Shown here: positions 3,234 to 49,847 of the stretch, piece by piece
Layout of the letters: each line of letters starts with the position of its first letter
How positions within the stretch are numbered: position 1 is the stretch's first letter
Position numbers and translations under genes: made by a program
Notes under the pieces: generated by a model
What the model was told of the DNA's origin: nothing
Databases searched by the model: none
The model's input: the letters and a program-made list of their open reading frames with translations, nothing else
Assembly: GCF_009834535.1 (NCBI RefSeq)
Contig: NC_045696.1
Span: 46,936,001 to 47,000,000 of the forward strand
DNA: 64,000 nt
Source: Camelus ferus
Taxonomy: Eukaryota
Direction of reading: 5' to 3'

Positions 3234-5329
3234 CTATAGGCATAAGAGCATAATAGGAACATATATAAAAAAAAAAACTACATTTCCTTCTTTCCTCTAC
3301 TTTTTTGAAGTTGTATCCTTTATCTTAATTACTTTAGTTGCTACCCATTTCAGGTGGGAGAGTCCTATATATAGCCTGCAATCAGATTATAAAGAAATAT
3401 TTGTAGAGCACTTTAGGATAAAAGGTTCTAAATAAATGTAAATTATTTTATGTGTTCACAGAGTGATGTCTGACAATTTGAATATAAATTATCCCTGCAC
3501 TGCTGGTGGTTAATATTTATGACTACCCATCAAAATGAAAAAAATTCTAATTACTGGAAAAGAAATACTTGTTTAAACAGTAACAATTATGTTTGCCAGA
3601 AGCAAGTCTGGAATCAAGTATCATGTATCAAATATTAGTTTGTCCCTTGAAAATTAAAATGGGGCCCTCTTCTTCAGAATTTTGGTGTCTTTTTCATGAA
3701 AGGAAGTCTACAATGATTATTAGAGTTCATATATTTGAGATATATTGTAGTAGACAGATCTGAATTTGTGTGCATATTTGAAATCTACTCCAATATTTTA
3801 ATTTCCTACAAGAGATCTTCAAAATTTTTTGGTTTACATTACTAAAGGTAACAATTTTAAGACTTAAGAAATACTCATCAGAAGATAAAAAATATTAAGG
3901 TGAACTGATGTAAGTGATGGAACCAGGATACCCTTCAGTCACACATACCTGTTTTCATACCTTGAAGCTCCACTTTGCTAACTACACTATTTTGTGAAGG
4001 AAAAACTCCTGTGAATAGTCTCATTCTACTGATTTCTTAAATTTGACACATGGGCTAGTAATTATAGGATAAAAAAAATCCTTGGGTACTTATACCAATT
4101 ATAAAATTATATTAAAACTGCAAAGAACCCCAAAGAGCACCTAGCCTGACCTTTATCACTGCACAGATAGGCAAACAGAGGCCCAGCGACAGAAAGGGGG
4201 CACACAGATAGGCAAACAGAGGCCCAGCGACACCCGAAGCCACACAGATAGGTGCACTGGGATCAGAAGCCAAATGTACTAATTCCCACCCAGGATGTTT
4301 TGGCAGTTCAGAGTTAACAAAAGGAGGAGCCGGCTGCTTGACACCAGTGAAGGTACTGGAGCAGAGAATTAATCAGCACATTCCTTTATCCTTAAGTATT
4401 TTTCTGTCTCATGAGCAGAAAGTATCTCAGAATATGAGAGCTTGGAAAGGAACTTAAAGCTCCTCTACTTATCCATTTAACAGTCATCTAGAGCAACGCC
4501 TTCATTTTACAGTTGAGGGGACAGTTCACTGACCATGACTATGGCTAGACAGACACGGCAAGGAAACAGGCCCCTCCAATCCATCCAGTCAACACTGAGA
4601 TAGGGAGGAGGAGCAACTGGCTGGCCTGTTGCAACTAGACCTTATATGGTTAAGCCTCAAAATAGAAACCTGTCTTAAGCTCAAGCGAGCATCTCTATGA
4701 AAGAAAATAAACATAACTATCATTATATAAAATTTTTAAAAAAGTACTCATCCTGCTTAATTCCAAAAATAATTTTAGAAGCTTAATAAACACCAAGCTC
4801 AAGTATTCCTTTTGGTCTCTGTCAGTAAACAAGCAAACAAACATATATGTGTATATTTATAAATGTATAAACATATACATATATTTATACATACATTATA
4901 TATAGTTTTAAAATTTATTGTAATTGATGTGTTTAAAATAGTTTGTGTTCTGCTTTTTCTATCCAGCATTATTTTCCACCCAGCAAATGTAAAAAATATA
5001 TTTTTTCATGTTTTGACATTTAAAGTATTTTGAGAGAAGCAAACATGCCTGACTCATCTATGTATAACTATGATGACTTCCATTGATGTTAAACTCCATG
5101 AAGGAGCTGGCATTTCAGTGGAAAACTGAAGCAGGAGCAGCATTTCAACGTGCTAGAAAGGAGGGGGAGAGGAGGGGTAATTTAGGCTGAGGGAGTAACA
5201 AGAACAAGGAAAAACAGGAAAATAAATAGGGAACAAGTAGCCCAAGCTGGCCAGAATATAACACACAAAACTCTTGGGGTGGGTGGGGTGGGGAGGATGA
5301 ATCACAAGAAAACAAAGCTGGAGAGCTAG

Positions 5330-8654: not shown

Positions 8655-8780
8655 TTTTTTTGGGGGGGAGGGGGGTAGTTAGGTTAGTTTACTTATTTAT
8701 TTAATCAAGGTACTGGGGACTGAACCCAGGATCTTGTGCATGCTAAGAATGCACTCTACTGCTGAGCTATACCCTCACCC
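8655..8780 (-). mobile_element. tRNA-derived SINE (camelid Vic-1-like)
   Basis: Minus strand reads GGGTGAGGGTATAGCTCAGCAGTAGAGTGCATTCTTAGCATGCACAAGATCCTGGGTTCAGTCCCCAGTACC, with degenerate A and B boxes, then an AT-rich/C-rich tail and poly(A). Confidence 0.85.
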
Positions 8781-12281: not shown

Positions 12282-15200
12282 AACTGTCCATTAAATTAAA
12301 TAACTTTTTCATGAAATTAAATTATTTTCTTAATGAAAAATATCTATCAGTTTGCAGGATAATTGCAGAATATGGCTTTCTTGAAGTTTTGAATGTGACA
12401 TTCTTCTTTAATTGTCAGCAGCTTAAAGTCTTTGTGGTGTGACAGCATGAGTTTTCTCTGCAAGTTTTCAGAGAACTAAACATATGACTTAGGGAGAGTT
12501 CAGCATGTACGTGTGGTGTATGTTGTATGTGTGTATTTGTTGCAGGGGGTGTGGGAACCATGCTGGAAATATGTGTTTCCTTAGGAAAGTTCCTGCTTTC
12601 TAGATATTCCTCTTGTAGAGAAAAATAAGACAGTGCTTAGAGGGTACAGAAAGGCTATCATAACAATCACTGGTATTCTCACACCTGCCTGTAATTGAAC
12701 TGAAACTGGAGATCCATAATCTCTCCATAAAATACCTTGTTAGTTAAATAATTACATTTCTAACATGTGCTCAGAGATGATCTTTACTGACTACCATCTG
12801 CTACTAAGCATTTTCATATGTTGACTCAGACTTATTATTCATGTGTACTCTACCCACACCCCTTTTATAAGGCCGCACAAATCTTCTGAGTGAGGGTTTC
12901 TAGACTTTACAAGCCTTGAGAAGAGGTTTGGCAAGGTAGTGAATGGGGCCCTTCTGAGAATGCAGGAACACACTTAGGGTGATTCAGAATGTAATTATTT
13001 CACAGGATGCTGAGTAACCATGGTGGGAGAGATGACCTAGCCAGTCCCTCTCAACTTCAAGAATCTACTAATCAAAGCTTTGATCTCATACTGATACTCA
13101 AAAAACAAACAACTGAAAAGATAAGTCATCTGTACATTTGAAGAACTAAGAAACATAAATCATTACCTTAGCATAAAGAAACAATCAAATGTAATGGGAT
13201 AAAGACTATAGATGTAAAAATTTGTCCAAATATTAAGAAATTTGCAATAAAACACTCTGATAGTGAGAACTACTCTAATACTGTTGACTGAAAAAAATAA
13301 ATGAAAAAGCCAATTAAAAAGTACATTTTACAGGAAGGTCCATATGATAGATGGTTTCTGCTTCAATTCATTTTTTATATTAAGTAATTAAAAGGAAACA
13401 TTAAATTATACTTTGCAATAATGAAATATTTAGGCCGTCCAGAAATTTCAATTACAATCAATGTGTATTAACTCAATGCTCTCAATCACAAATGTCTATT
13501 TGAGGTATAACTGCCTTGAGGCATTAGTAACTTCCCTCTGGAGCATTTACATGACATGCAGTCTTTACTGGTTATTTCCTAAAAAATCTGTTACCACTAT
13601 AGATGTGCTTTAGTTAGAGCAAATGGTAACTTCTAAAGCAAAAACTCTTGCTCTCCTATTTCAACCTGTGATAAATGAAACCTTTTGGATCAAGTTGAAA
13701 CATTTATCACACTCAGGGTAAATAGGAAGGACAGCATCATCAACTAACTTTAAGCACCGAATATCCTGAATGTTCAACAAGACTGTGACAAAAGCAGCTA
13801 AAAATCATTTCCAGTTGCTTAAGGATGGCTGGGTTTTTCTCCAACCCTTTGCAGTATTTTCAAATGTCTAATTTAAGCATAGTATTCACTCCAACCACTC
13901 TGATATCTGTCCATGACCCACATACTACAAAGGAAAAAAAAGTTGACCTTGAGAATACAATTTTAAATCCACCAAATAACACCATGTTTTAAAAATAATA
14001 CAAAAATCCAAAACATTGTTCTATTTTGTGTAGTCTCCCTTACAGAACACTTGCCTGTAAAAGTCCATCAGTGAATATTTCCCCTTATTTGCTGAGACGA
14101 TGTGGCAGTTGAGTAATCACGCAGGCTGCTCTAAAAATGTATGTGTGTCTAGTTAATTTAGGCAGTTTATTTTGATAGCATTCACCTCTTTTTGATTATA
14201 GCAGGTGTTTCAAGGATAAATTTGCTGAAAATTGTATTTTGTTTAAACAACAGCAGCATGTACATTTATGGCCTTACTATATTAAAAAGCATTTATTGTC
14301 TGGCAGCAATAGATACAATTGCAAACATTTGTGACAGTAATTGGAGCTATTACTCCTGCACGGAGCCTCATGGAGACCAACTTATTGCCACCTGTATTTA
14401 CATTTGTTACTGGTAATTATAAAAGCTGATTTTTAAAAATTTGCTGCCTTATTTTGCTTTAAACTTTGTGGATTTTTTTCAACAAAAAGTCTGCTTACCA
14501 GAAAATTTGTAAGAATTATAAATGTAGTTTCTTTATTATTCAAATGATAGGCAGAATCCAATTTTATTACTAATATATATGTGAAATGTATTCCTGGATC
14601 CTAGCCCACAGAATGTACTATACCTTTTTGCTCATGAATGCAAGAATCCTATCAATGTTGCCTATCCAGCAACCAGAGTACAAGTCTTAAGAAATGCTCT
14701 TTATATTCCCAAACTGTAACAATTTACAAATCCCTACAAGTCAGAAATATTTAGAAAGCTAAATTTTATTAACACTCTTCTTACACAGCATCCAAACACA
14801 GTGACACAGCATCCAAACACAGTGATGGCAGAAGGTCAAAGCAAGTTACTGTCTCCACAGCTCTGGAATGAAAAAAATACCCTCTACTGCTTCCAGATAC
14901 AGATTTGTTTACATCAGTAAAAAGGGAAAGCCGACCGTTCATGCACACTTCTGCAGGATTTGGCTTCCAGTTTGAAGAGACTTAGATCTAATACAGCAAT
15001 TCTGTGGTCCCTCCAGGTTCATTTAAATGGAATTCCACCTGCGGATGAATGAAGGTCTCAGGTCTCTGTTCCCTCTTAGGTTTTAGCTCTCACAGTGACT
15101 AGAAGCCCAAGGGCTCAAGACTACTGAATGATTCCATCCTTAGCTCAGACTCTTCCCAAAAGGTTTCCTGCTGTGAATTACACCAGGCAACACCTGTTTG

Positions 15201-23261: not shown

Positions 23262-24039
23262 CTAAGAAAGGAAAGATATCACAGGATTGAGAGTTTATAA
23301 AAAGAAATGGTAAAATTTTGAGGCATTTTAGCAGCACTGCACAATTTATATCAAGCACAGTACTGTTAAAATTATAGTGGCAAAAGAAATTCTTTTCTGT
23401 CCTCCTATCCATGTTGAAAGAAAATAATGCACCAACCTGGAAGGATAGCAAAATAACTATTTTTAAAAACCATTATTACAAAAAACAATGCTTTTGAGAT
23501 ATCAGAGTGAACTCAATGGGAATAATGTCAAATGGACAAGCCACTTAGGTATGTTAATTGGTAACAGTAGAAGAAATACAAACACATGTTTGGTAAGAAA
23601 ACACTGTCTTAGTTTGAATTCATTGTATTGAAATACAAACCCAAAATCTGAAAGGCAAAAAAGGTAAGATACCAGAAGCAAAGGGCTCATTATTTATAAA
23701 TTTTTGTATTTATAAAGTGATATTTTGGTTAGGTCAAACTATAATGCAGCTTAAAAATGTAATTTAATGCAGACCTATCTGAACTCAAACAAGATAGGGG
23801 CCAACTTTCTGCATTTGGTTTCTGCTGTTGAGTAATAAGATCAATTCATGTCTGTTTTTGAATCAGAAAAAGAAAACTTCTTTTTCCTCCATTTTTCCAG
23901 ACCTCTACTTTTGGCATTAGTATGCATGGATCTGAAAACATAAAGAATGTACAAATTAATGATTTAAAGATAAAGCTCCCTGCATTCATTTTGGCAGCAA
24001 GTTTTCATTTTATGTTCCCTTGAAAAATTATAAGAAAAT

Positions 24040-24470
24040 GTAAGGATAATATAAAAATTTATTAATACAGAAAAAAAGAGACCAGAGATGTAAACAGCCA
24101 AATTTAAACAGTCTATAAAAAGATGTTTTTGAGACAATCAGGGAAATCTGTAATGTGGAAGAGTATTAAATGATAATAAGAAATTATTACTAATTTTATA
24201 GGTATGATAATAGCATGTGGTTATGTTAAAAAAAAAGCCTTATAAATTAGAGATAAATGCTGAACTATTCATAGGTAAATTGACATATTATCTGAAATTT
24301 AATTTAAAATAGTATGAGGCAAAGAAAAAAGGAGGGAGGGGCTTTAGAGGAAACACAACTGACAAAATGTTAATTGTTAAACTGGGTACTACTGCATCAG
24401 GGTTCATTATCTTATTCTCTCTAATTCTGTATTTGTTTGATATTTCTCATAATCCAACATTTAAAAATAA
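24040..24470 (+). mobile_element. Old L1 3'UTR fragment (L1MC/ME-type)
   Basis: TTTTTGAGACAATCAGGGAAATCTG..AGTATTAAATGATAATAAGAAATTA..TTATAGGTATGATAATAG..GGGTTCATTATCTTATTCTCTCTA. Confidence 0.7.
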
Positions 24471-27400
24471 AAGACTATAAAAACAACCTCAGGGGAAATT
24501 AGATTCTCAATGTGAATTTATGTCACTAAAAGACATTTCTTATCCAGTATAATACTAAATACAAGAATAACCTTATACTGGATTTTATTTTGTGGAGAAC
24601 TGTAAGTCCTTCGGGGCTTTGAAGTCACTCCCAACTGAGTCTCCAGGGCAGTGCTGACATGAGAAAGCCCCTCTCTCCCACCGTGTATCAGCAAGTCCTG
24701 CACGGACTCAGAGCCTTAAAAGGAGCATGCATTGTTTTCTGTTCAGAAATTCAGGAGGCTGTATAGCTCTAACCACACAATTAGAGGGTGGATAACTAAA
24801 ACATGCTTTTATATTTCACAGCCTGTGGCTTGAATGGACTCAGTTATGTTCTATTTTAAAAAAAAAACCAGAAGTATAAAAAAATAAGCATTAATTTAAG
24901 TAAAATGTGGAAACCCTAAGTGAAAATGTTTGATTCTACTTTAAACATTAAAGTGCTCATTTAAATATAGAAATGCTGTATTATTTTGAGTACCTAATAT
25001 AATGCTATATATCTATATAAATGGAATCCAAGGTAGTATAATAGCACCATAGCTGGGGAGGGCCAGCAGTATTCTCAAAGTAGCGTGATGTTATATAACA
25101 AAATATCATGGCACGAGAAGAGATGCTCTCCCAGTTGAAAGGTATGGGGAAAGCCATGCGGAAAGTTCTCTGTCACGGAACTCCACGTTGACATTCATCA
25201 ACATTCACATACTTGCACACTCTGCCACATTCCAGTGCCCATCCTCGGCTCATCTTCGGTACCAAACAGGGTAGACTTATGGGGAGGAGTTGGGTGGGAG
25301 GATGTATGCACTGCCAGTGGGATGTGAGCCCTAACATTCGGGGTGTGTGTATGGCATATTCACAGACTTTCTCGTGCTGAGGTTATGAGCCCCCACATCC
25401 CAATCCTGCAGAGCTGGGCTGAGCCAAAAAGGGGCATGTCCTTTTAAGCAGCAGTTCTCTATGATTCTTAATAAAACACAGATGTTCTGGTCACTTATTT
25501 AAAAATAAGTTTGACTTAGGGAACCACCATTTGGGTGAACTGAAAATGGTGTTACTAATGAAATCCCCACACTACTGTTCCCCAACTCCATCCCCTCATT
25601 CTCCTCCCTCCTTCTTTCCTTCCTTACAGGAGGGTGGAGTCCAGAATCACCAGATAAAGCCAGAGAGGGTACCATCCACATTCCCACTTTCTTCACAACT
25701 GAACATAGGATTGTTCAAGTTGTGCATAACATACTTAAAAATTTTACTCGAGGAAGGGCACATTTTTCTAATTTTCACAAAGGCAAATGTGTTAGCAGTG
25801 GCCCTGTTTGAATTAGGCTCAGAATCTAAGAGTCAGTAGAGTACTCAGGGATCAAACACTGCATTGAGATATCCCAGTGCATAAGCTACCATTTATTTTT
25901 AAACTGGGCCCTTTAGCAAGTTGCATTTACCCTTTTTAGCTTATTATTTGGTTCCGTTAAGCGATAATTTGCTGACTCCTATTCCCAATGTCCTGAAATG
26001 ATTTAGTGTAGCAGCTCAAAAGTTCTCACTCATTCCTAGGCCGTAGTTAATATACTGGGGAAAATGGCCTAGTTACTAAAGAAAGGGCAAAAAAGAGAAC
26101 ATTAGGCTTGGCAGAGCAGTATTAACTTATTCAAACCATACAGCCTCTTTCTACTTCCATTCTTGCACATCTATTTCATAACCTTGTTCCTCACTCAAAA
26201 TTTCCTAATGCCTGATAAGTGGATACATTAACTGAGCAAGCCCTGAATATGAAGTATAAATCATCTTAACCGTGCCTTGGTTATAATACTTTGAGAATAT
26301 CTTTCCTTTCCAATTGTTTCTCTAATAACAAATGGTATTTTATGTGGAACTGTTAGTAAAAGAGAAATAAACTGCTGTTTCCATTTAATCAAAACTTTAT
26401 ATCATCATGACAAAGTCCCTCTCCAAAGCATTAACTAAGGTAAAGCATAGCTCTTGGGAAATTGCGTCTTCTAGTTAATGCTGCCAAAGAAACAATTAGA
26501 AGCTCAGTAAGACGCGGGCTATCCCGAACTCTCATTTATAATTAATTAATTTACCAATAAGCCAGTTGTTAAGCTCCTACAACATGCAAGGTAAGAATCC
26601 AGGCACTGTGCTTGGTGTGGAAAGACAAAAGGGTTTAATCCCTGCCTCTAAAGAGTTTACAGCCTATCAGGAAGAGTCTGAGGCTAGTTAAGGGGGGTAA
26701 TAATTGGTCCTAAAAAAAAGAAACTTATGAGAACTGACTCTAAGCCTGCCAAAGGAAGAACTCAAGATAAATCTAAGTCATCCCCTAATGTAACCTAGGG
26801 GCATATCACCCAAGGTGAGTTCAAGGATCAAACATGCAATGTTACTAGCCTGCTCAGAATTCTGTTCCAGTGATACCCCCTTTTCCCCAGATAGTATTAA
26901 TGGGGATGGTTAAGCATCTGAAGAAACACTATGTTCTCTGTGTGTCTATGTATTTATATACACACTATACACACACACACATAGATATAGATAATTGGAT
27001 GTGGTTGGTTTTATGGTCACAGGGGTGTAATAAGGGAAAGCCCTACATATAAGCACACATGAGGACAAGCGAGCCCTTTGCAACCTCTGGCCTGCTGGAT
27101 AGGGTATGTAGTGCTGCAAAGCTGTTCTGGTCAATTAGGTTAAATGTGAATACAAAACCTGATACATACGTCTTCAAAATATCTTCACCTCTTAACTCTG
27201 GGGACTCTAGGTAGGCCATGGCTACCAGCAGGGGGAGTAATGTACTAACAGAGAGAGAAAGACATATTAATAAATATTAATATAGAAAGCTGTTACAGGT
27301 GATATACAGTGGAAGCACTGGTCATATTTTTTATATACTTTGGTTGCCATCTTAAGCAAAGAACTTAAAACAATCTCTTTGGGGTGAAACTATTCCCAGT

Positions 27401-27828
27401 ATGTACTGCACACTCATTATTGGAAAACCTCATAAGAGAAAGGAGACTAAACAGGAGACTAAACACTGTCGGAGCAATGCTGACTATGAATTACTGATAT
27501 CAGCGAGAGTTAACTCCACTCATTTCAACTCTGCTATGTCCATGACAACAAAAGCCTGGTACTATAGGATCTTTTAGATCCCAAGGGTCCAAGCCAGGCT
27601 GGGCAGTTGGCTCTGGTTAACACATTTCCCCACTGGGAATAAAGAAGAAGAAAGCTGGGAGTCAAGTAAGCCAGTGTTTCTATGACTTGACTACTTACGA
27701 ATACCCTACAAAATGCCCTTTGATCACTGATTGAGAACTTGTCTGGTAAAGGGAACATACATGGCTGCATGGACAGACCCAAGAATGAAGCTCAAGGCTC
27801 AGGCATCCATGAGAAGACGTTTCCTTGG

Positions 27829-28250
27829 GATTAAATTATGGCCAGTAAATGTCAGCATTTACCAGTATCCAGTATTCAGTCCAACGGTGGTATCTGATGC
27901 TTCTAAGAGGTAGAGATTTTGGCTTGGTAATTGTAGACTTAAACACCTCCACTTGCTCTCTCTAATATTACTAGTTCAGTGTTGGGATCTTTTGACTCTC
28001 CCTTCATCTCCCATTTTCACCTGAAAGTCTGTGAATCCAATTTCTGCCCAGGTTCTCATGATCTAGGTTCTCCTGGTCAAACTCTCATCTGAACTTGTGA
28101 TCTCCCTGTAACTTTTGTAAGAGCAAGTGGAGGTGTTTAAGTCTACAATTACCAAGCCGAAATCTCTACCTCTTAGAAGCATCAGATACCACCGTTGGAC
28201 TGAGTACTGGATACTGGTAAATGCTGACATTTACTGGCCATAATTTAATC
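27829..28250. repeat. Long inverted repeat: 131-bp arms (27829-27959, 28120-28250) with a 160-bp spacer
   Basis: Arms compared base by base; they are reverse-complementary except at 27875/28204 and 27920/28159. Confidence 0.97.
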
Positions 28251-31200
28251 TTTTTTGATGTCTTTCATTGTAAGATTCTGTAATACAATGTTGCACTCAG
28301 GCTGAGAAATCTAGATATTACTGAGCCCACACTAAATGATCCCAAATAACTATAATGTTTTGCACTCTTAGGTCTGCCGTTAAACTGTTCCTGTAGCTTC
28401 TCTTGCTATCAAGATGCCAGTGATCAGCAGTGGCTGTCTCTCTGATTGCCTGTAGCAGTGCTTCCTTCTTCTAGGTTGCTATGAGTTCAGAAACCTAACA
28501 GCTGAGCTTGTCAGAATTCAGACAAAGTAAGAATAAGGGGGGAAAAAGTGAGTGCTCAGCTCAAAAAGGGGTGGTGGTAAGGTTAGAACCCTATAGAAAT
28601 TTTTAAAAATGGAAGTGTTTATACTTATTTTGGTTGCAGAGTCCTGTTTTGCATTCTTCCTCATTTGCTGTTTTGTTCAAGATAGGATAGGTGGACAAGA
28701 GGCTAATATAATATATATGGTATTACTATGAATTAAAAAGGGTTTCTCCTAAGGGTATCTGGTGTCCTTTCTTTACCATCTATTAGTGAAGCAAGAGAGG
28801 GACAAATAATGTTATTTCAATCAAGAAGAATGTTTCCTTGAAATCCCATGATTTTAACAAATTATATCTAAGGCAAAGTTAAAAATCTTTCATGTCCCTA
28901 CAAGTCAATTCTGCATGATTAAAGAAGCACAAATTGTGAGTTTGATTCATTATTTTCTCCTCAAATTAGGTTTTACATGATTTAACACTATATTACTATG
29001 AAGAAAAATGTTTAATACCATATAAAAATTATTTTTAGATTTGTTCTGAATAACCAAATTAAACCTTGGCTAATCTATCAAAAGAAATAGATAGATGGTA
29101 GCTTCTGTCTTTAAATATATCAAGTTTGTAGAAGTTTTTTTTTTTTTTAAGTTCAATTTTAAGACTATCAAGAGAAATTTTATTCTGAGTTACAATGTGA
29201 ACCAAGATTTGAATAAATTATGCTCCCACAAATCAAAAATGAAAAAACAAAGCTTGCCAAATTAACACAAAATAAATGTAATTTTCCAATAAGAAATCTG
29301 AAATTATTTTTGAATGAGAATTCAACTTCCAATATTATTTCTATTTAATACATCAAATATCTACCTTTACTATTTTAGCTACTTCAGTGTACACTAAATG
29401 CTAAGATAAAATCATTTCCGATTTTTAATTTTCTCAAAATAAAGCCAAAAGAAAGTGCCCAGGAAGTAAACTTTCTTCCATATGAAGAAAACTACAATAG
29501 ACATTATACTTGGTGTTGTAGAGTATGAAAAATAAGTTTAATTCTTTATGGCATGAAATTCTATGAGGTTTTTCTTTGAGACGGTAACCACACAGATATA
29601 CCAGTGCTCAAATACATCTGAAGAGCTCAATTCATATACCTACTGAGAAGAACATGAAAATCCAATTAACTGTTGAGATTGAACAGTCCCAGAACTAAGT
29701 TGCCTTGAACAGTATGGTGTAAATGTTAAGAGGATGGGTCAGGAATCCCATCCCTGGTCAAATCCCACCTCCATCATTTTTTACTAGTTGCAGGTCTCTA
29801 AATCTCAGGCTTCCCCCATCTGTAAAAGGGGAATAATAATAGCACTCCCCTCATTGGAAGGGTTGCTATGAAGATTAAATTAAATGATGTATTTAAAAGG
29901 CTTTTACAATGCCTGGTACATAGCAAGCCCCCAATTTATTTTAGCAGTTATAATTATCATTATTATATGCCAAGCATGGTACTAGATGCTTTTACATATG
30001 GGTGAAGTGCCCAGTAATAACACCATGAATCAAATGAGTCTTATTTCCATTTTTTCAAATGAGAAAAATGAGGTACAGAGCACTTAGGTAATTTTCCCAA
30101 TGTCACACCATTAGCTACGTGGCAGAGTCCAGGCAATGAATGCTACCCTAGAACACAAGCTCTGAAACACCCCTTACTGAATGCCTATCAATCCTTTGTC
30201 ATACAGGCTACAATAATATCCACTCAGTTCATCACTTGTCTTTTAACTCTGTGGTGTTCCCCACCCCTCTATATAAAAGGTTTTAATTTTACACATTTAG
30301 ATTTATCAGTATTTTTCTTTTATGGTTTTTAGTTTTCTTGCCATGTTTATCATGCCCATTTCAACCCATGAGTATAATACCTGCCACTCATGTTTTTGTT
30401 TGTGCCTTAACATTTTTTAATTTGTTGAATCATGTGAGGTTTATTAAAAAAGATGGGAGGAGTCCATCTTTTTTCTCCAAATGGACACCCTGTTATCCTA
30501 TCACTACTTAATTGAATAGTACAGACTTCATTGCTTTGTATACTAATATAAATATATATTTGGATTATTTTATGAACTCTGTACTACTTCATTAATCTGT
30601 GTCAGTATAATCTTTTTACAGACTTACAAAAAACTACACAAATAGCACAGAGAATTCCCATATACCCTTAATCCAGATTTACCAAATGTTAGCATCCTAC
30701 ATGACCTCAGGGCAGTTATTCAGAAAGGGATATAATATTTATACCTGGGTGCTGAGATTTTCAAGTTTTTCTTTGTACTTTTTGTGCTTTCATTTTTAAA
30801 AAAAAACAAGGAATATATTTCATTTTTAAAAAGAATAAAGTTTTTTCAATAAAAGCAAGTAAATATATAAATTGATTAACTTCTAAATATTAGCTGTTAC
30901 AGGTGGTAAATGCTTTAGAAGTTTGAATAAGAGAGAGAAGTGTGTTTTAATGGCAATGGTGAGATTTAAGTTTAACTTTACATGGATGTTTAGGATATAA
31001 ACAGGCAGAAGAGGCAAGCCAAGTGTTTTTATAGGCAGGAAGGCATCATAAGCCAAAATACTGAAATAGGAATGAACATGGCTTATGAAGATCACATGAG
31101 AAGAGAGACGAGGGGCTTAAAAGGGTGAATATTGGGGAGCAAAACCAATTGAATATATTGTGAAAGACCTTACAAGCTAGGCTGAGGAATGTGAATTTTG

Positions 31201-34200
31201 TCCTCTAAGCCAAAGGGGAGGCCAAGAAAAGTTACAAACAAGGTAAAATGACTTTACCCAACAAATCTTTATTTAGTGCCTACTATATATATATCAGGTA
31301 CTGTTCTACCCTAGGAACAGTGAATAAAATAAAAATCCTCACAAAGGAATATTCTAGTTATGTTTTATGAAAATCGATGGGTTGTAGATTGGTGGGTCAC
31401 AGGATTAAACGGGGCTGGGATGATAAAGGAAGGTCTCTGTAAGGAGGCAAAATCTGAGCTGAACCTTGGACATTTAAGAGTCAGGTAGAGAGATCATGGG
31501 AAGGCATTTTAGATAAGAGACAAAAGAAATGAGGATGGGATGGGGTGAGCGCAGATATATTCAGGAGGTGTCTGAAAACCTATGAGGGGACTTATTTACC
31601 TGGAGAATAGTTACTCTGCAGAAGAAAATAAAGTTGGCTATGTGGACAGCAGTCAAATTGCTAAGGGTTCTGAAAGCCAAATCCAAAATTTATTGCTTTA
31701 AAATCTGTATAAACTGACCTGTAGGTAGTGAAAAGCCACCAAAAGTTATTTAACTCACAATGAGCTAACAAAAGTCATGTTTTGGTAAGTAAGATCAAGG
31801 GGTAAGATAAAAAATATTCTGGAAAAGGGTAGGGGTGGTGGAGATGGATATGGATAAGGGAGAGATTTCAAAGGCAGCATCCACAGGTCCTGGGGACTAA
31901 CAAGATGTCCTGGATGAAAATGAATCATTAGTCAGATATTCAAAGCACTAACACTGCTTGGGGTTGATGGGTAGGGGTGGGCATATTTAAAGAACATAGG
32001 TTCAGAAAGTACTGAAAAAAGCCCACATTCTAGGTACCCATCTCATATACTGAATTACATAGTAAATATCTGCTATTAGTATTGGTATGGGAAATATAAC
32101 TTATCCATTTATACAATGAGAGCTCTCAAATGATTCCTGGAAAAAAATCATATTATTTTTCATTAAATTCCCCTATATCATTTCTGTAGGGGAGACCTTA
32201 CGTGACAGCAAACAGAGTCCAGTGGGCCTTCAATAACAATCCAAGTGACAGATTATGAAATAAAGCCATTCTATGACCAAGGCTTCCTAATTTACATTGA
32301 AACACAAGCTTCTTGATAACAGATTCTATGTATAAAAAATACTCATGGCAATCTAGAAATCTATTTAAATTGAGAGATTAGGGCTTCTATTCTCCTATAG
32401 CACATAAGAATGTTTGTAACTAATTCCAGTTTCTAGGAAAGGCGAAAAATTATACAAAATAAGAAATGCATCAAATGTGCACTCTGCCAGCACCACGCTG
32501 GGTGTGGGCCACAAGTTATATTAGTCTCAAAACAATGCTGGGTTGAACTGTCTCTCCATTTTACAAATAAGAAAGCAGTCACAGAAGGGATAAATGGCTA
32601 TGGCCATGTGGCTAGTGACGCATGGCCAGGATTTTACCTAAGGCTGCTTTTCCATCGTAGCATCGATCTTGAAGGTATGAACTCAGATCTGGAAGGGACC
32701 TTGAGAAGTCCTTGCTTCCTAATTCTTGCTAGGCTTACAATAAAACCAGGATGGAAATAAGGACTTTCCCTATTTCAAGTGTGGATTCAAAAGCTACGCT
32801 AAAGATCAAGCAAAACTCTTTTACGCCCAGCAAGAACTGCCGTTTGAGCCTCCTCTGAGCAGGGAGGAGGACAGCTTTTTTCTCTAACCTACATTTCCTA
32901 TTCACCTCCAGATGTAAAACTGATGGGGTGGTACGGGTTAGTTAACAGAGAAATAAAAGATTTACTCAGCCATAATGTGTTCCATCACACTCAAACATGT
33001 GGCGTTTTAATTGTTTCTTCTGTGAAATACCAACCACAGACTTCTCAGTCACAACACAGATAGGAGGACTAACACCCAAATGTTTTAGGAAAGGAGAAGA
33101 AAAGACATTCTCCTCAAGCAGGAATCGGAACCAGTGGTAACCTTTGGGACAAGATATGATTTGCTGTAGAATGGTATTTTTCCTGTGTTACTCAGAAAGG
33201 ACATTTTGTGGAAAAGTGAAGTGTAAATCATTTGTAAAATGAAAATTTAAAGTGTTTAAGATAATAACTGAAGTAGATCCATCTTGTTCCTATTTTTTAT
33301 TACAATATTGCAGACTTGCCATGATGGCACCCTAAGCTGAAACTGAAATGACAATTTTTATTCTAAGCCCAGATTTTTCCTCCCTTACAGCTTTTGCTTT
33401 TTAAGCTAAAAATTCTCTCATTCTTAGTAGAATGAATTTTTTGCTAAGTAATTAAAAACCAATTGTGTTTAAACCTTTTGAGATAGTTGGTTTTATGCTG
33501 TATAACTCAGAATTTGGTTTCTAAAACCTCAAATTTAGCATCTCAAGGAAGAATGGTATCTATGGCATGTTTGAAAAAAATGTTTTGAAACGAAATGACG
33601 GGCTTTTAAAAATAGAATTCAGAGAGCACATAGCTTCCCTCCCATCTTTTTTTCACTGGGGGAGAAGAATGACACATCTGCATTATGCTGCCAGAACACT
33701 ACTGCTGTGATTCTACTGAGCTTCAGAACGGAGGGGCGCGACAAAGACCACTCACGATTGTGGTGCAGTTACCAGGAAAACACAGGCAGTTTTCCACTGA
33801 CATACTCAAGTTTGAAACAGAAATGACCAGAACACCTGCCTAACACCTCACCACCAGATCCTTCCTTCCCTGCTCCCACCTCTCACATCTCTGAATATTC
33901 TCCTGGGCCTGTAACTATCGTGGGCTCTGCCCAACTGTCAGAGCTTTAATACCGCACCAGTGTCCCCCCCTCATGACCACGCCGAGGGAAGCATTGGCTC
34001 CATTTCAGATTTCAGATTTCAAGAACATTCAGAAATCAGAGGGACAGAGAGAATGTAGAACTTTGTGGGCCAGCCTTGAAGATTAATATCCATTTGTAAT
34101 GTTTTTATTTCCAAGAAAAGCTGTATCAAAATTCAAATAACTAACCTGCAAATCAAACTTTGGAAACTAAAGCTATCACTCACTAACTGCAGGAGCTATT

Positions 34201-34213
34201 TTCTTGCAAAGTA

Positions 34214-34684
34214 CAGGCATCCCTCAGAGATATTGCGGGTCTGGTGCCAGACCACTGCAATAAAATGAATACCACAATAAAGCGAGTTACACACATTTTT
34301 TTAGTTTCCCAGTGCATATAAAAGTTGTATTCAAACCATACTGTAGTCTATTAGGTGTGCAACAGCATTACGTCTTAAAAAACAATGTACATACTTTAAA
34401 AAATATTTTATTGTGAAAACATGCTTACTATCATCTGAGCCTTCAGCAACATCAAAGATCACTGATCACAAATTGCCATAACAAATACAATAATAATGAA
34501 AAAGTGTGAAGCATTTCGAGAATTACCAAAATGTGATGCAGAGACATGAGCTGTACAAATACTATTGGAAAACTGGCACAAGTGGGCTTACTTGATGTAA
34601 GGTTGCCACAAACTTTCAATTTGTAAAAAACACAGTATCTGCAAAGTACAATAAAGCAAAATGCAACAAAATGAGGTATGCCAG
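34214..34684 (-). mobile_element. Tigger1 internal-deletion derivative (TcMar DNA transposon)
   Basis: Both Tigger1 ends present (CAGGCATCCCTCAGAGATATTGCGGG and GCAACAAAATGAGGTATGCC), with TA at 34212-34213. Confidence 0.88.
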
Positions 34685-34829
34685 ATAAAACCATAATGGT
34701 GCAAGAGAATTAGAGGAGGAAACCACAGTAAAAATGGCATTAAAAATATGTTTTAAACCTCAAAGTAAATAAATATATATTCTGAAAAACACTGCTTCCA
34801 AACAAACCAATTTCATCATTGTAAGCATC

Positions 34830-35280
34830 TGTTGACTGAAAAAAACACACAACCTAAAAGTTGAGAATTAGGTTTTACTCAATTTGGCAGACTTTCTGAG
34901 GACCCAATCCTGGGAGAGAGCCTCTCAGATAGCTCTGAGGGACTGCTCTGAAGAGGTAAGGTAAGGGCCAGGATATTTAGCAATTTTTGCAACAAAACCC
35001 AAGCAGCTGGAACATCAAAAGATTACTGTTAATTAAGAAACCCAGACATCTCAAGTTAATGAATTTTAGTGCTTTTCTGTGTATGGGAAGATGCAAGAGT
35101 CTGAGCTCACTGAAACCATTCCTTTGATGTACACTTTAACCATCTAGGGCCAGTATCCTAGTTTTTCTCCATCTGAATCCCCTCAGCATGCACTGTTGGG
35201 GGTGGCTGCGGTAGCTGATGGCGTGAGGGCCACAACATCCTTCGTTTACTTATATGGCAGACAATAGTCCTCACCCACCC
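34830..35280 (-). mobile_element. ERV1-class LTR (MER41-like, artiodactyl)
   Basis: Starts TGTTGACTGAAAAAAA..CCTAAAAGTTGAGAATTAGGTTTTA and contains GCCTCTCAGATAGCTCTGAGGGACTGCTC. Family assignment recalled, not searched. Confidence 0.7.
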
Positions 35281-35439
35281 GTTCGTCATTGAAAGGAGGC
35301 ACCATTTTCTTAGAACACCGTTTTCAGGGTTCATGAAATACTGCTTCTGGGTTATGATCTGATTAGGCAGACATTTCAAAGTTTAGTCAATCTCCTTACA
35401 AATTCTTCAAATTAGCAGTTACAGGCTTCAAATATGCTA

Positions 35440-35785
35440 TGGTAGTCAGGAAGCTGGACCACTAGGTCTCCTTTCAAGGAAGGACTTCCTGCTCAGCTGC
35501 AGGGAAGGTGGCCAGCAGACAGCTCCTTCGGGCTCTGTCTCACCTGCAGAAAGCCACCTCACCTGGAGGTACATCTTTCCCAGGGCAGCCCGCCTCCAGC
35601 GACTGAGCCAAGCAGGCAACACAGCTCCTCACCAGGTTGGCTGAAGCCAAGACCCAGGCCTGAATCGCAGCTAGATCCTTCCCTCAGTGCAATCCTGCTT
35701 TCTTCCCCCGTCCTTTCACCATAAATATCTTGCACCCCAAACTCTGTCTCGGCGTCCACTTCCGGAGAACACAATCTGCAACACA
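35440..35785 (+). mobile_element. ERVL LTR16-like LTR
   Basis: 3' end ATAAATATCTTGCACCCCAAACTCTGTCTCGGCGTCCACTTCCGGAGAACACAATCTGCAACA is characteristic of the LTR16 group. Confidence 0.75.
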
Positions 35786-38647
35786 TGTCTTTTTCATTTA
35801 CCTTCTCTCTTGTTCCATTTACCACAAATCTCAGGAAAATGCTCGTGTAGACCCAGCTTCTTGAATTATGATACTCAAGAGCATACTTTTCAGGGTCTAG
35901 ACTTCACTTCATTTAAGGAAAGAAAGGAATATAAGTAGATTTCTCCCTGCATTATCCTACATGGTGCCTAGAAGAGGACTCCATTATTGCTAAGAAGTTC
36001 TTTTCTCCAGGAAGATTAAACTGTACTTCCCTATGAAATTAGAAATATGAAATAGCATTCATTCACATGTATATTCATTCAATATTATTCAATTCAATAT
36101 TACTCAGCACTTTCTACACACCCGGCACAGATGAAAAAGCAGTTAAAAAAAAAAAAAAAAGCTCCTGCTCTAGAGGAGTTTGCATTCTACTGGTTGAGAC
36201 AGACAATAAACAAATCAGATGAATACAATGCCAGGATCTATGAAGAACAATAAAGCGGGGGAAGTGATAGTGAATGACCGTTTCAAAACTGCAGGTAGAG
36301 AGTGACTGCTGTAATCCACACACTGCAGGGCTCGCACAGCCAAGTATATGTTTACTACATCAATTTCCTAGATAGTATCTATCACTCTTGTTCTAGTGAA
36401 GAATTCATTACATCAACTTTACTGAAATATTTCTTCTGCATTCTGAGTCCACCTGCTGCATGAAACAAAATCTTAAATCTGTGTTACTAACCTATACAGC
36501 AGTTCTGTCTTTGGGAAAGAGCAGGCTCAGCCATCACAAGCTACAGTCAGATACAGCTGTCTCAGGCAGATGGCTTTGGTGGGCAACATCATAAACTTGC
36601 CAGATTTTTTAAATATGAAAGGGTTTTCTGCCTCATTAGTACTTCATGGCTGACCATCCACAAACACCTGGTGTTCAGACTTCCTTTGAAAATGCAATCA
36701 TACATAGTCTTAGCTCGAAAAGGTGTGTATTATATAACCATTGTCTAAAGGATCTAATAACTAGATAATTTATAAAGTCACAGGTAGGGGAAAACCCATC
36801 CTTATCTAGCTTAATTGACCTTAATTAATACAAAAATTGAAATTAGGATTGATATGGATTTGGAGTACTGGCAGAGGCAAATTAAATTACTGGACTCCTT
36901 GCTAATACTTAAACTACTTTGTTCAGAGGGAATTCCAGGTGGTCTTTGCAGGCCTCTATTTACACCATCAATAAAAAATGAATCATACAAATGACAGATT
37001 CTTTCTAAGAATAACTGTATGTATCTCTACTTTTATTCTTTTTCCTTCCTACTTTGGAGAACTTTGTCATCACATCTTCAACACATACAGGAACACCAAG
37101 CACTAGTGTCTTGCTTAGAGTCAGAATCAAACTCTACCTACCTAATTGAACTTTTGTTATGAGGTAAAGGGAAAAAAGTAATAGACTTGGGAGTTTGGAG
37201 ACTTGAGTTCAAATTAAGCCAGTGTAATTTTTTAGCTTTTTAAAAGATTAAACCATCCCAAGGTTATAAATTTTAGTTTTTGTATCTGTAAAATGGAGAT
37301 AACATCTACTCAAACACTTTATAAGGTCAGTAAAGAATGTGTTTTAAATTATTTGAGAACTACAAAGTGATCTGCAAATGCTTTGTTACAACCGGAGTTT
37401 ATCTGTTTGGATTTAAATGTTACCATACTATTCTGAAATAATTTGCAATTGAACAATAAACAAATACATTTATTCATTTAAGAAGCATTTATTCAGTATT
37501 ATCTGTGTTATACTATGGCGAATATAAAAAATGATAGTCATCCTTGTAGCACGGAGATTATGCAAGTCAGATTTGAGAGAAGGAATGTGGGGGGACATTT
37601 GGTTTCGGTTTTAGCCAACACTTATCTAGCACTTTGTATGTGCCAGACGTCATTACACATGCTTTACACGTAGTTAACGCTTTCAATCTCTAAAAACTGT
37701 ATGTAAAAGGTAATGTTTTTATCCTCATTTTATAGATGAGGAAGATAAAGCACAAGAAGTTTGGAAATCTGCCCAAGGCCAGACACCTAGTAAGTACTAA
37801 AAGTCTTAAAGTCAACTCACACACATAGGCAAGCTAGCCACAATGTTATGTTATGTTACATCTCAAGTTGGGTAGAAAACACACAGATCATTAATGATAG
37901 TTACTAATGCCGACTAACAATACTAAGGAGGTGAATGATAAATGAAGAGATCATCTTGGGGTGAGTGGCCAAGGAAGGCTTCATGGTATGAACCCAAAAC
38001 TAGATCCAAACTTGTTGGTAGAATTTAGAAAAGAAAAATTAAATAAAGGATAAACAAAATTATGTTCTATATGTACTTTTCTGAGCATGCAATAGATATC
38101 ACTTTATTGAAATATAACATACATAAAGGAAAATACAAAAATCCCATAAGTACTTTTGAAATATCTCATTGAGTGGGTTCTCTTTTATTGACTGGATTTA
38201 TTTCCTAATTAAAACAGAGCAAAAACTGACTTACAGCACTGTCTGACTGCCTATCCATATACCAGCCAATATAATCCATTCTATTTCAAAAAATTACCAT
38301 TTAAGTATTTTCCTATATTCTAGACCACTCAATATTGGCCATTATAATGGAAAATAACTAGCAATTGAATTATATGTCGTTCCATGATAACAAATGACAC
38401 AAGAAAAATAAACTATTCCCAGTTTACATGAAATTTTCCATGATATTTACAGGAAGTTGCCACATTTGTACCTCTAATATTTATATTTGCTATAATTATA
38501 TTTTTATATATAGAAAAACAGTTTTGAGAGCTACTTTTCAAGTGACACACGAAACAACAGCCAACAATGGTTTCTACTTATTTCAGTTTCCAGCAGAACA
38601 CATGTACTGATTGCTTGTTGGTCCCATGTGTATCCCAAGTAACTTAC

Positions 38648-42899: not shown

Positions 42900-43204
42900 C
42901 TAAAACAATAAGGCTTAACATGAGATGAGAGTTAAAAACAATACATTTTAGCAGGACAAAAAGGCATAATATGAATATTAAGGATCCTCTCTACGCCAGT
43001 TCTGGTCCTTTTTCACCTGTCCCTCCTTCCCATAATCACTGTTAAGTGTTTCACGTATTCCTCCTGAAGCTTTCTATGTAAGGAAGCAAAAATCTTTATC
43101 TCCAAATTTGAAATATTAAGTTTACATAAATGGGGTGATACCATGTAAAATGTTATCCAGCCTATTTTCTTCCCTTACTAATAAACCATATTAACGTACG
43201 TACA

Positions 43205-43416
43205 CAGTTGATCCTTGAACAACATGGGTTTGAACTGCGTGGGTCTACTTACATGCAGATGTATTTCAATAATAATACACTACTATGTGACTTGTGGTAC
43301 GTTGAATCTGCAGATGTGGAACTGGATATGGAGGAAGCCCTTATAAGGAAGGCTGACAATAAGTTATACGGGGATTTTTGATGCTGTTAACTCCTCCATT
43401 ATTCAAAGGTGAACTG
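43205..43416. mobile_element. Tigger2/MER8-like MITE inside an old L1
   Basis: TIRs CAGTTGATCCTTGAACAA ... TTATTCAAAGGTGAACTG followed by TA; same family as 63329-63569. Confidence 0.85.
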
Positions 43417-48270: not shown

Positions 48271-49548
48271 AAACAAGGGTATCTCCACGCAAACCCATAA
48301 CTCAAAGTATCCTGCCGAACTCCTGACAAAATATTTCAGAGATTATATCAATAGAATCTCAAGGCCATGTTCTTTGAGTTTGAAATATATATTTGGAGAA
48401 AAAACTGCCTATTTATTACATAGAAAATGTTGGTTGTTTATACTATCCTGATCAATTCATTAAAGTAATAATTTCCAATCCTACCATTTTGTTCATGGAT
48501 CAAGCTACACTACTTTTTCATATAACTTTTCTCATATTATGGACTGACAGCAATATGAAGTTTACATGAAGCCTACGTATCTTCCAATGCAAGTCATCAG
48601 AAGAGAGCGAGGAATGAGATCCGAAACTGTCAAGGGAAATTATTCGAGTCTAGATATAGCCATTAAGAGAAAGTACTACAGATTCTTAATCTAAATTGCC
48701 TCTCACACAATTAAATAAACACAAAAAATTAACACAAAAAATAAATGTTAAGTACTAACATTTAGGAAAGCTATAAAACTTATTTATGAGGCTATCACTA
48801 AGTTACGCCGATTGGAAGAGAAAAGTGCTAGCTGTCCACCACCCTCAGCGACCAATGCCAGTGACTTCAGGATATGATGGGCTTTTTCCCTCCCAGAACA
48901 AGGGCAGAACTTTAGGCTCTGTGACATACAATTCCAATAGTTGTCATTTCATTTGTCTTTTCCATTTCTCAGCTTCAGAGAGTACTGTTATTGCAAAGGC
49001 ATAAGTCTTTTAAACCATAGCAATTAGTGAACAAGTTTATGAACTGCATGCTTATAAAGTGCTCAACAAGGTCCATGGTTACCAGTTGTAGGGGCAGGTT
49101 CTCGAAGAGGAAAACAAAAACTAGTGATCAGTCTAAAATGATAAAAGCTTTCTTCCATCTTTGGGAATGAGATTGTGAGTGACTGCAGTATTTTTTTTAA
49201 ATACATTTTCTTGTGTTTTCTGAGTTCTCTACAATAAGTACCTTCATTTATAATCAGAAAAAACAGTTTGTGTTTTACGGAGCTGCGTGTGTACTCTAGG
49301 CATGCTGTCTTCCAGTCCTTTCTGTAATTCCCAAACTTTACTCTTTCCCCCAAAATACCAAGTCTAAACTCCGTGAGCAGCCCGGCCCTACGTCGCCAAG
49401 TTTGGGGTGAAGTGCCCTTTCCTGAGTGGGAAGGGAAGATGGAGGCAAGTGCTTGCTAACCCGCGCTCCCTGTTACCCACAAGGCCGGAGAAAGGCGTCT
49501 CCCCAGGGCCCAGCCGGCACCCGGGCGCTGCGGGACGAGAGCACCCAC

Positions 49549-49763
49549 CTGGACGGGGGCTTCAGGTTGTTCTTCCGGAGGAGATCCTCCTCATAGCGGA
49601 GCAGTTTCAGCTTCTCCACCAGGTCCTCCATCACCACGAACGTGTGGTAGGCCGCGCCGGGCCCCCGCTCCACGACCACCTCCCCCGCCCCTTCGCCGCG
49701 GGACCGAGACACCCCATCCTCCAATCCCGACGGCGTGACCACTGCCGCGGCAGCAGCCATCAT
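49549..49763 (-). CDS. IFT57: IFT57 coding exon 1 (intraflagellar transport 57 / HIPPI)
   Basis: Translates MMAAAAAVVTPSGLEDGVSRSRGEGAGEVVVERGPGAAYHTFVVMEDLVEKLKLLRYEEDLLRKNNLKPPS(R), recognisable as the IFT57 N-terminus. Donor AG|GTGGGT at 49549/49548, phase 2. Lies in a CpG island. Confidence 0.97.
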
Positions 49764-49847
49764 AAAACAGACAGAAGGAACCCAGCGTTAGTTCGGGCCC
49801 AGAGACCTCCGCGGCCTGCGCTGCAGCAGCCAGGACCTCCGCGACCG

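What the first reader, a model, noticed from the sequence alone, without database searches (positions are those of the whole stretch)
27829..28250. Near-perfect 131-bp inverted repeat in IFT57 intron 5, not built from a recognisable SINE/LINE
Seen: arm 27829-27959 is the reverse complement of arm 28120-28250 at 129/131 positions, around a 160-bp spacer, with sharp ends and no TSD or MITE-like termini. Other repeats in this window are far more decayed. Inference: either a recent template-switch inverted duplication, or an older palindrome kept homogeneous by arm-to-arm gene conversion. Because it is intronic in a broadly expressed gene, IFT57 pre-mRNA should carry a roughly 130-bp duplex. Established: duplexes of that length are substrates for ADAR and potentially for Drosha/Dicer processing or dsRNA sensors such as PKR.
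Basis: partly seen in the sequence, partly recalled or inferred. Interest (0 to 1): 0.78.

Follow-up and report, generated by a model that had tools for sequence, protein, structure and literature searches.

The report
Young inverted duplication in camelid intron
A 131-base stretch inside a long intron of the camelid IFT57 gene is repeated backwards 160 bases away; it is real and would fold the unspliced RNA into a long hairpin, but it looks like the scar of an ordinary DNA-copying slip, of a kind already catalogued in primates, with no sign yet of a function.

Summary
Observation confirmed. Arms 27829-27959 and 28120-28250 are reverse complements at 129 of 131 positions around a 160-bp spacer, in intron 5 of IFT57, which runs on the minus strand in a camelid. 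The transcribed strand folds into a 131-bp stem with two A:C mismatches.

Best reading (0.62): one short-range template switch made an inverted duplication roughly 0.4-28 My ago (rates assumed). Two transitions need no gene conversion at that age, and such events are catalogued in apes and humans.

Main rival (0.24): an older terminal-inverted-repeat element whose arms were re-homogenised. The 8 bases outside the two arms match 5/8 and differ only by transitions (P 0.002-0.04, post hoc), so 'no TSD' is not secure.

No genome, orthologue, reads or repeat library could be obtained, so age, copy number and expression are untested. The functional claims are weak: the stem is not pri-miRNA-shaped, Rfam finds nothing, and introns do not reach cytosolic dsRNA sensors. 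Nuclear ADAR editing is plausible and ordinary. This scan has noted the same class before on other DNA, including URB1 in this genome.

The parts
27829..27959 (.). Left arm, 131 bp (the 3' arm in the IFT57 pre-mRNA)
   Evidence: 129/131 complementary to 28120-28250; carries T at 27875 and 27920
27960..28119 (.). Spacer/loop, 160 bp, no more structured than intron background
   Evidence: 52% of 126 GC-matched 160-mers fold as stably; self-complementarity P 0.17-0.19
28120..28250 (.). Right arm, 131 bp (the 5' arm in the pre-mRNA)
   Evidence: carries G at 28159 (CpG) and 28204
27821..27828 (+). Left copy of a candidate decayed 8-bp target-site duplication around the whole 422 bp (TTCCTTGG)
   Evidence: 5/8 identical to 28251-28258, the other 3 are transitions; P 0.002-0.04 depending on the rule, post hoc
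28251..28258 (+). Right copy of the candidate decayed 8-bp duplication (TTTTTTGA)
28115..28275 (+). 8-bp direct repeat TTGTAAGA (28115-28122 and 28268-28275) bracketing the right arm plus 17 nt; possible insertion scar if the right arm is the new copy
   Evidence: P 0.0145 per search; 0.057 over four searches
27825..27988 (+). 7-bp direct repeat TTGGGAT (27825-27831 and 27982-27988) bracketing the left arm plus 22 nt; possible insertion scar if the left arm is the new copy
   Evidence: P 0.042 per search; 0.16 over four searches
27967..28101 (.). Weak inner inverted match, 11/13, between 27967-27979 and 28089-28101
   Evidence: P 0.03-0.9 over 12 settings; 0.036 when anchored at the arm ends
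23262..38647 (-). IFT57 intron 5 (15.4 kb), the host intron; the repeat lies 4.6 kb from the exon 6 acceptor and 10.4 kb from the exon 5 donor

Best explanation
A single short-range template switch during replication or break repair, probably in the camelid lineage, copied about 130 bp of intron 5 in reverse next to its source (one arm new, or the spacer inverted with it) and then returned to the original template. The two copies have since drifted by two transitions. The product is a neutral long inverted repeat. Because it lies in a transcribed intron, the nascent IFT57 RNA can form a 131-bp stem with two A:C mismatches and a 160-nt loop; nuclear ADAR probably edits it and it is discarded with the intron. 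Shown: the repeat, its place, the fold, the sharp ends. Inferred: the mechanism, which arm is new, the age, the lineage restriction, editing and neutrality.
For: Local reverse-complement copy 160 bp from its source, with no further copy in 64 kb. No homology beyond the outer ends: P 0.67, 0.26 and 0.72 for 100, 200 and 500 bp; anchored P 0.85. 2/131 equals 0.0076 substitutions per site per arm (95% 0.0009-0.028), or 3-8 My (range 0.4-28) at assumed rates of 1-2.5e-9 per year. Without any conversion P(<=2 mismatches) is 0.69-0.85 at 5 My and 0.05-0.21 at 16 My; the Camelini/Lamini split is ~16.3 Ma (PMC12337305). Each arm is bracketed by a short direct repeat that overlaps its first 3 bases, as in '4 before 1' events (PMC7954356). 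The size fits known events: great-ape copied fragments up to 128 bp, human 119 and 125 bp in low-complexity sequence, and 277 polymorphic human inverted duplications with median 284 bp and mostly 1-15 bp microhomology (PMC12350158).
Against: No outgroup or empty allele was seen, so the defining test is missing. 131 bp is at the extreme of the ape short-range set (median 12 bp), and the longest human event in complex sequence in one survey was 90 bp. The 8-mers outside the arms look like a decayed TSD, and anchored inward homology has P 0.036; both fit an older element better. The two bracketing direct repeats cannot both be scars of one simple insertion, so at least one is chance. The 17- and 22-nt 'fillers' have no clear local template (best exact matches 8-9 nt).
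Confidence: 0.62

Rival explanations
1. The 422 bp are an old non-autonomous DNA transposon (or another old inverted repeat) with an 8-bp target-site duplication. Its outer 131 bp were re-homogenised more recently by arm-to-arm conversion or quasi-palindrome correction, while the target-site copies and the interior kept decaying.
For: The 8-mers just outside both arms are 5/8 identical and differ only by transitions: 44 of 14,800 intron positions and 141 of 63,480 window positions do as well. Weak inward continuation, 11/13, anchored P 0.036. A sharp outer end is expected if homology stopped at the element's end. Hundreds of thousands of old hAT and Tigger copies exist in camelids (PMC8605555). 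Arm homogenisation has precedent in nematodes (PMC1803023, abstract).
Against: The TSD pattern was found post hoc; P rises to 0.033 with +-3 boundary shifts and to 0.04-0.08 on identity alone. The spacer is not self-complementary beyond background (P 0.17-0.19; fold at the 52nd percentile). Inner plus outer homology reached P<0.05 in 1 of 12 settings. The ends do not begin like the common hAT or Tigger termini (recalled, not tested). No second copy in 64 kb.
Confidence: 0.24
2. Whatever its origin, the hairpin is now selected: it yields small RNAs, is a regulated editing substrate, or affects splicing of intron 5.
For: Very stable duplex on the transcribed strand, with 36 + 43 adenosines and two A:C mismatches, a context ADAR favours (recalled). 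Template switches have produced new intronic miRNAs in primates (PMC10710096). A cryptic donor in the loop at 28020 ranks 21 of 818 GT sites.
Against: The 131-bp stem and 160-nt loop differ from the ~35-bp stem that Drosha prefers. No basal UG, and no CNNC at +16 to +18 (criteria recalled). No Rfam match. The best acceptor in the repeat ranks only 129 of 983. None of the 54 IFT57 proteins matches this region. The repeat is 4.6 kb from the nearest exon. Intronic dsRNA is reported as non-immunogenic.
Confidence: 0.06
3. Assembly artefact, such as a chimeric or misjoined read.
For: No reads or second assembly could be examined.
Against: The arms differ at two sites, both transitions and one at a CpG, which is what real mutation gives. 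No gaps in the window. The arms are shorter than a typical read.
Confidence: 0.05
4. A member of a young, multi-copy MITE or foldback family active in camelids.
For: Size (422 bp) and terminal inverted repeats fit the general MITE form.
Against: No intact TSD: the longest exact bracketing repeat is 3-4 bp, which is background. A young insertion should keep its TSD as well as its arms. No other copy in 64 kb. The two old transposon-like copies in the window are only 70% alike.
Confidence: 0.03

Closest known systems
Short-range template-switch mutations, four-point model (Loytynoja & Goldman 2017, PMC5453318; Walker et al. 2021, PMC7954356)
   Same: A reverse-complement copy of nearby sequence that creates one inverted repeat with a spacer. 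Types 1-4-3-2 and 3-2-1-4 give single inverted repeats, and '4 before 1' events add a short duplication.
   Different: 131 bp is at the upper limit of the ape set (median 12, maximum 128). Here the ancestral allele was not seen, so the switch points and event type cannot be assigned.
Polymorphic small inverted duplications in humans (PMC12350158)
   Same: Size class (median 284 bp, 277 events) and short microhomology, ascribed to replicative mechanisms.
   Different: Those are segregating variants; this one carries two substitutions and is probably older. Its polymorphism was not tested.
Long inverted repeats (LIRs) in mammalian introns (Lirex paper PMC5414712, which cites Wang & Leung 2009 on species-specific intronic LIRs; that paper was seen only as a citation)
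   Same: Meets the LIR definition (>30 bp, >85% identity). The paper's human demonstration table lists a 122-bp pair with 4.7% mismatch.
   Different: Higher identity than that example. The arm/spacer ratio of 0.82 and the 160-bp spacer are far from the strongly recombinogenic range (ratio >16, spacer <20 bp).
Template-switch-born miRNA hairpins (PMC10710096) and hairpin maintenance by template switching (PMC8794818)
   Same: Same proposed origin; intronic, co-transcribed with a host gene.
   Different: The stem is about four times longer and the loop far larger than in a pri-miRNA; no small-RNA evidence.
Non-autonomous TIR DNA transposons (MITEs) of camelids (PMC8605555)
   Same: Size, terminal inverted arms, and a possible 8-bp TSD remnant.
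   Different: No intact TSD, no second copy seen, and arm identity far above that of old copies. The paper's library could not be read.

Membership tests
Short-range template-switch mutation | A segment is the reverse complement of nearby sequence | tested here: met
   129/131, 160 bp apart
Short-range template-switch mutation | Ancestral (outgroup) allele lacks one arm, so switch points 1-4 can be placed | not testable with these tools
   no genome held; no runs listed; no orthologous locus
Short-range template-switch mutation | Microhomology or a short duplication at the junctions | tested here: inconclusive
   7-bp and 8-bp direct repeats bracket the arms, P 0.042 and 0.0145 per search; they point to different arms
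Short-range template-switch mutation | Copied length within the observed range | tested here: met
   131 bp versus a maximum of 128 in apes and a median of 284 for human inverted duplications
MITE / non-autonomous TIR transposon | Terminal inverted repeats, under 800 bp, non-coding | tested here: met
   no Pfam hit below E 0.2 in six frames of 25500-30500
MITE / non-autonomous TIR transposon | Target-site duplication flanking the element | tested here: inconclusive
   no intact TSD; degenerate 8-mer pair, 5/8 plus 3 transitions, P 0.002-0.04
MITE / non-autonomous TIR transposon | Multiple dispersed copies or a repeat-library match | not testable with these tools
   none in the 64-kb window; no genome or Dfam; supplements of PMC8605555 unreadable
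Palindrome under concerted evolution | Arms more alike within than between species | not testable with these tools
   no second species obtained
Palindrome under concerted evolution | Decayed homology next to the homogenised tract | tested here: inconclusive
   outward none; inward P 0.03-0.9 by setting
Canonical pri-miRNA | Stem of about 35 bp with an apical loop | tested here: not met
   131-bp stem, 160-nt loop; criterion from PMC10710096
Canonical pri-miRNA | Basal UG and 3' CNNC motifs (positions recalled) | tested here: not met
   AG at the basal junction; CNNC only at +21 and +24
Canonical pri-miRNA | Discrete ~22-nt reads from the arms | not testable with these tools
   no reads obtained
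Immunogenic endogenous dsRNA (MDA5 substrate) | Retained in RNA exported to the cytosol | tested here: not met
   lies mid-intron; 10.1101/2022.08.29.505707 passages. Intron retention itself was not measured.
Strongly recombinogenic LIR | Spacer under 20 bp or arm/spacer ratio above 16 | tested here: not met
   spacer 160 bp, ratio 0.82; criteria from PMC5414712

The most novel reading that the evidence does not exclude
The 422 bp are an old, possibly uncatalogued DNA-transposon relic with an 8-bp target-site duplication, whose 131-bp arms are repeatedly re-homogenised in each camelid or artiodactyl lineage. Its decayed target-site copies would act as an internal clock against its near-identical arms. 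That would give a direct measure of arm-to-arm conversion in a sub-kilobase autosomal intronic palindrome, and a long-lived, maintained dsRNA in IFT57 pre-mRNA.
Probability: 0.1. Interest if true: 0.55.

Novelty: new member of a known kind. Interest (0 to 1): 0.2.

Why it matters
On the best reading it matters little: it is one more template-switch scar, useful at most as a camelid lineage marker and as an example from the long end of the size range. It would matter more if orthologues showed both arms changing together across species. That would document concerted evolution in a very small autosomal palindrome and would make selection on the RNA duplex worth testing.

Tried and rejected
Whole-genome copy search: no genome is held for this window.

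Sequencing runs: one search (window:22900-29200, DNA, library word PACBIO) listed none. That means 'none was listed', not 'none exists'. No reads were laid, so assembly validity, polymorphism, orthologues and editing are untested.

Collection scans: an arm 20-mer gave 0 matches in viral contigs and an arm 24-mer gave 0 in metagenome contigs. An exon-6 pattern gave 12 metagenome loci, of which 0 of 12 extend beyond the 20-27-base seed, so they are chance matches. These collections are not expected to hold camelid DNA, so the blanks say little.

Rfam: 1 match in the window, a tRNA-like SINE far from the repeat; 3 matches at E 6.5-7.5 near the repeat, all chance. Pfam on six frames of 25500-30500: 1 match at E 0.2, below its cut-off.

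Outer 'extension' (10/11 match near 27809 and 28260-28269): P 0.04 in one banded test, 0.06-0.73 in others, 0.85 anchored; rejected. Cryptic exon in the loop: good donor, no good acceptor, with an approximate matrix from recalled frequencies; rejected. Retroposed insertion: no poly(A) tail at either candidate insert end (sequence); rejected.

Literature: 'IFT57' with 'inverted repeat' gave 3 papers, 2 listed, both unrelated. 'camel', 'A-to-I editing', 'ADAR' gave 16 papers, 15 listed, none a camelid editome by title. A search for TIR homogenisation in mammalian MITEs gave 4 papers, none on point by title or abstract start. The camelid repeat libraries in the supplements of PMC8605555 could not be read and may bear on the MITE question.

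Full report
OBSERVATION. The repeat is as described. Arm 27829-27959 is the reverse complement of arm 28120-28250 at 129 of 131 positions, with a 160-bp spacer. The mismatches are 27875 T / 28204 G and 27920 T / 28159 G. Both are transitions, and the second is at a CpG that survives in the right arm. The + strand folds at -298.8 kcal/mol (z -25.3; 0 of 100 shuffles as stable). Nothing else in the window is comparable: of 48 inverted pairs (25 shown) the next is 61 nt at 74%, and a gapped self-search at E<=1e-4 returned only this pair and one 70% direct pair. The window has no N.

CONTEXT. The ORF at 49473-49787 (-) is the first coding exon of IFT57 (54 homologues). tblastn with 4 of those proteins places further exons at 46979-46812, 45979-45860, 42901-42809, 38716-38648, 23261-23139, 3233-3162, 2359-2216 and about 890-828, all on the minus strand. 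The repeat is therefore in intron 5 (ATG exon counted as 1), 4.6 kb from the exon 6 acceptor and 10.4 kb from the exon 5 donor. A Camelus ferus protein is identical to the window in four exon segments (31/31, 23/23, 41/41, 24/24), so the source is a camelid; the species was not determined. On the transcribed strand the stem still forms (-292.4 kcal/mol) but the two mismatches are A:C. There is no Rfam family at the repeat and no protein-family remnant in six frames of 25500-30500.

AGE. Two differences in 131 bp are 0.0076 substitutions per site per arm (95% interval 0.0009-0.028). At assumed rates of 1-2.5e-9 per site per year this is 3-8 My, with a range of 0.4-28 My; the rates are my assumption, not a measurement. 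Without conversion, two or fewer mismatches have probability 0.69-0.85 at 5 My, 0.05-0.21 at 16 My and at most 2e-5 at 60 My. The Camelini/Lamini split is given as about 16.3 Ma (PMC12337305, passages). A plain duplication within camelids explains the identity. An origin before the split from other artiodactyls would need homogenisation.

ENDS AND JUNCTIONS. Outward there is no homology: P 0.67, 0.26 and 0.72 for 100, 200 and 500 bp and 0.85 when anchored at the arm ends. A 10/11 block a few bases out reached P 0.04 in one banded test only. Inward there is an 11/13 match (27967-27979 with 28089-28101): P 0.03-0.9 over 12 settings, with inner and outer together below 0.05 in 1 of 12, and 0.036 anchored; yet the spacer as a whole is not unusually self-complementary (P 0.17-0.19) or stable (52% of 126 matched 160-mers fold as well).

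Three short direct repeats compete as junction clues. TTGTAAGA brackets the right arm plus 17 nt (P 0.0145 per search) and TTGGGAT brackets the left arm plus 22 nt (P 0.042); over four searches these become 0.057 and 0.16, and about 0.006 for both together. Either would be the scar of a one-arm insertion with a short re-copied stretch. Against that, the 8-mers immediately outside the two arms, TTCCTTGG and TTTTTTGA, are 5/8 identical and differ only by transitions. That holds for 44 of 14,800 intron positions and 141 of 63,480 window positions, rising to 0.6% for lengths 7-10, 3.3% with boundary shifts and 4-8% on identity alone. It could be a decayed target-site duplication around the whole 422 bp. 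All three patterns were found after looking, they cannot all be real, and the sequence alone does not choose between them.

MECHANISM. The simplest account is one short-range template switch. The four-point model (PMC5453318; parts 1-2 of 6 read) produces a novel inverted repeat with a spacer in one event. In apes, types 1-4-3-2 and 3-2-1-4 dominate, '4 before 1' events add a duplication, and the copied fragment has median 12 and maximum 128 bp (PMC7954356; section 8 and passages). Human surveys report events of 119 and 125 bp in low-complexity sequence and 90 bp in complex sequence (10.1101/2021.11.26.470150, passages), and 277 inverted duplications of median 284 bp with mostly 1-15 bp microhomology (PMC12350158, passages). 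This locus lies between those two size classes. I give it 0.62. The main rival (0.24) is an old TIR element or other old repeat whose arms were re-homogenised; camelids hold over 160,000 hAT-Charlie and over 40,000 Tigger copies (PMC8605555, passages; supplements unreadable), and maintained inverted repeats are reported in nematodes (PMC1803023, abstract). A selected function (0.06), an artefact (0.05) and a young MITE family (0.03) are unlikely.

RNA CONSEQUENCES. The duplex should form co-transcriptionally, and with 79 adenosines it is a plausible nuclear ADAR substrate; this is inference, and such intronic duplexes are common in mammals (own knowledge). It does not look like a pri-miRNA: Drosha prefers a stem of about 35 bp (PMC10710096, abstract, opening text and section 6), and the basal UG and CNNC motifs are absent (positions recalled). 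Immunogenic dsRNAs are depleted of introns because splicing removes them (10.1101/2022.08.29.505707, passages); that paper concerns MDA5, and extending it to PKR is my inference. A cryptic donor in the loop ranks 21 of 818, but the best acceptor in the repeat ranks 129 of 983 (approximate matrix), and none of the 54 IFT57 proteins matches this region. As DNA, the 160-bp spacer and arm/spacer ratio of 0.82 are far from the strongly recombinogenic range (PMC5414712, passages). PMC8794818 was seen as abstract and outline only.

WHAT WAS NOT OBTAINED. No genome is held for this window. The one run search listed none, and no reads were laid. Metagenome and viral scans gave no related locus (0 of 12 loci were IFT57). 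So assembly validity, copy number, orthologues, editing and small RNAs are all untested, and the lineage-specific claim is inferred from arm identity alone.

NOVELTY. The class is known, and this scan has recorded it on other DNA, including a 144-bp case at URB1 in the same genome and a 70-bp case in human DOP1B (unchecked notes, not evidence). I found no paper on this locus in one search for IFT57 with inverted repeat. Verdict: new member of a known kind, interest 0.2. The reading worth checking is the old-element one, which a multi-species alignment and a Dfam scan would settle quickly.

Noticed in passing
window 35903-35802 (-): A dolphin IFT57 isoform (P0017) continues from exon 5 into a segment 80% identical (28/35 aa) to this part of intron 5, which lies in a 114-codon open frame. 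Possibly an alternative exon shared by camelids and cetaceans.
   Followed up: partly
window 25760-25671 (-), 36409-36320 (-), 33765-33643 (-): Predicted IFT57 proteins of a tamarin (P0038) and a hamster (P0053) contain segments 46-57% identical to these intron-5 stretches. This shows that parts of the intron are old orthologous DNA; the segments are probably gene-prediction errors.
   Followed up: no
window 27223-27236 (+): A CTCF-like core motif about 600 bp from the repeat (motif recalled, not scored).
   Followed up: no
window 8705-8776 (-): tRNA-like element just above the Rfam cut-off, followed by an A-rich tail; probably a camelid tRNA-derived SINE (family recalled). One copy in the window.
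   Followed up: partly
window 43204-43378 and 63328-63516: Two copies about 70% identical, resembling an old Tigger-type DNA transposon (name recalled).
   Followed up: no
window 4162-4191 and 4203-4232: Exact 30-nt direct repeat, 41 nt apart, in intron 6; a recent small tandem-type duplication.
   Followed up: no
window 14783-14825 and 27441-27465: Perfect two-copy tandem duplications of 21 and 12 bp; the second lies about 360 bp from the inverted repeat.
   Followed up: no
window 28249-28244 (-): An ATTAAA hexamer opens the 5' arm on the transcribed strand; it would be paired in the stem. No evidence that it is used.
   Followed up: no
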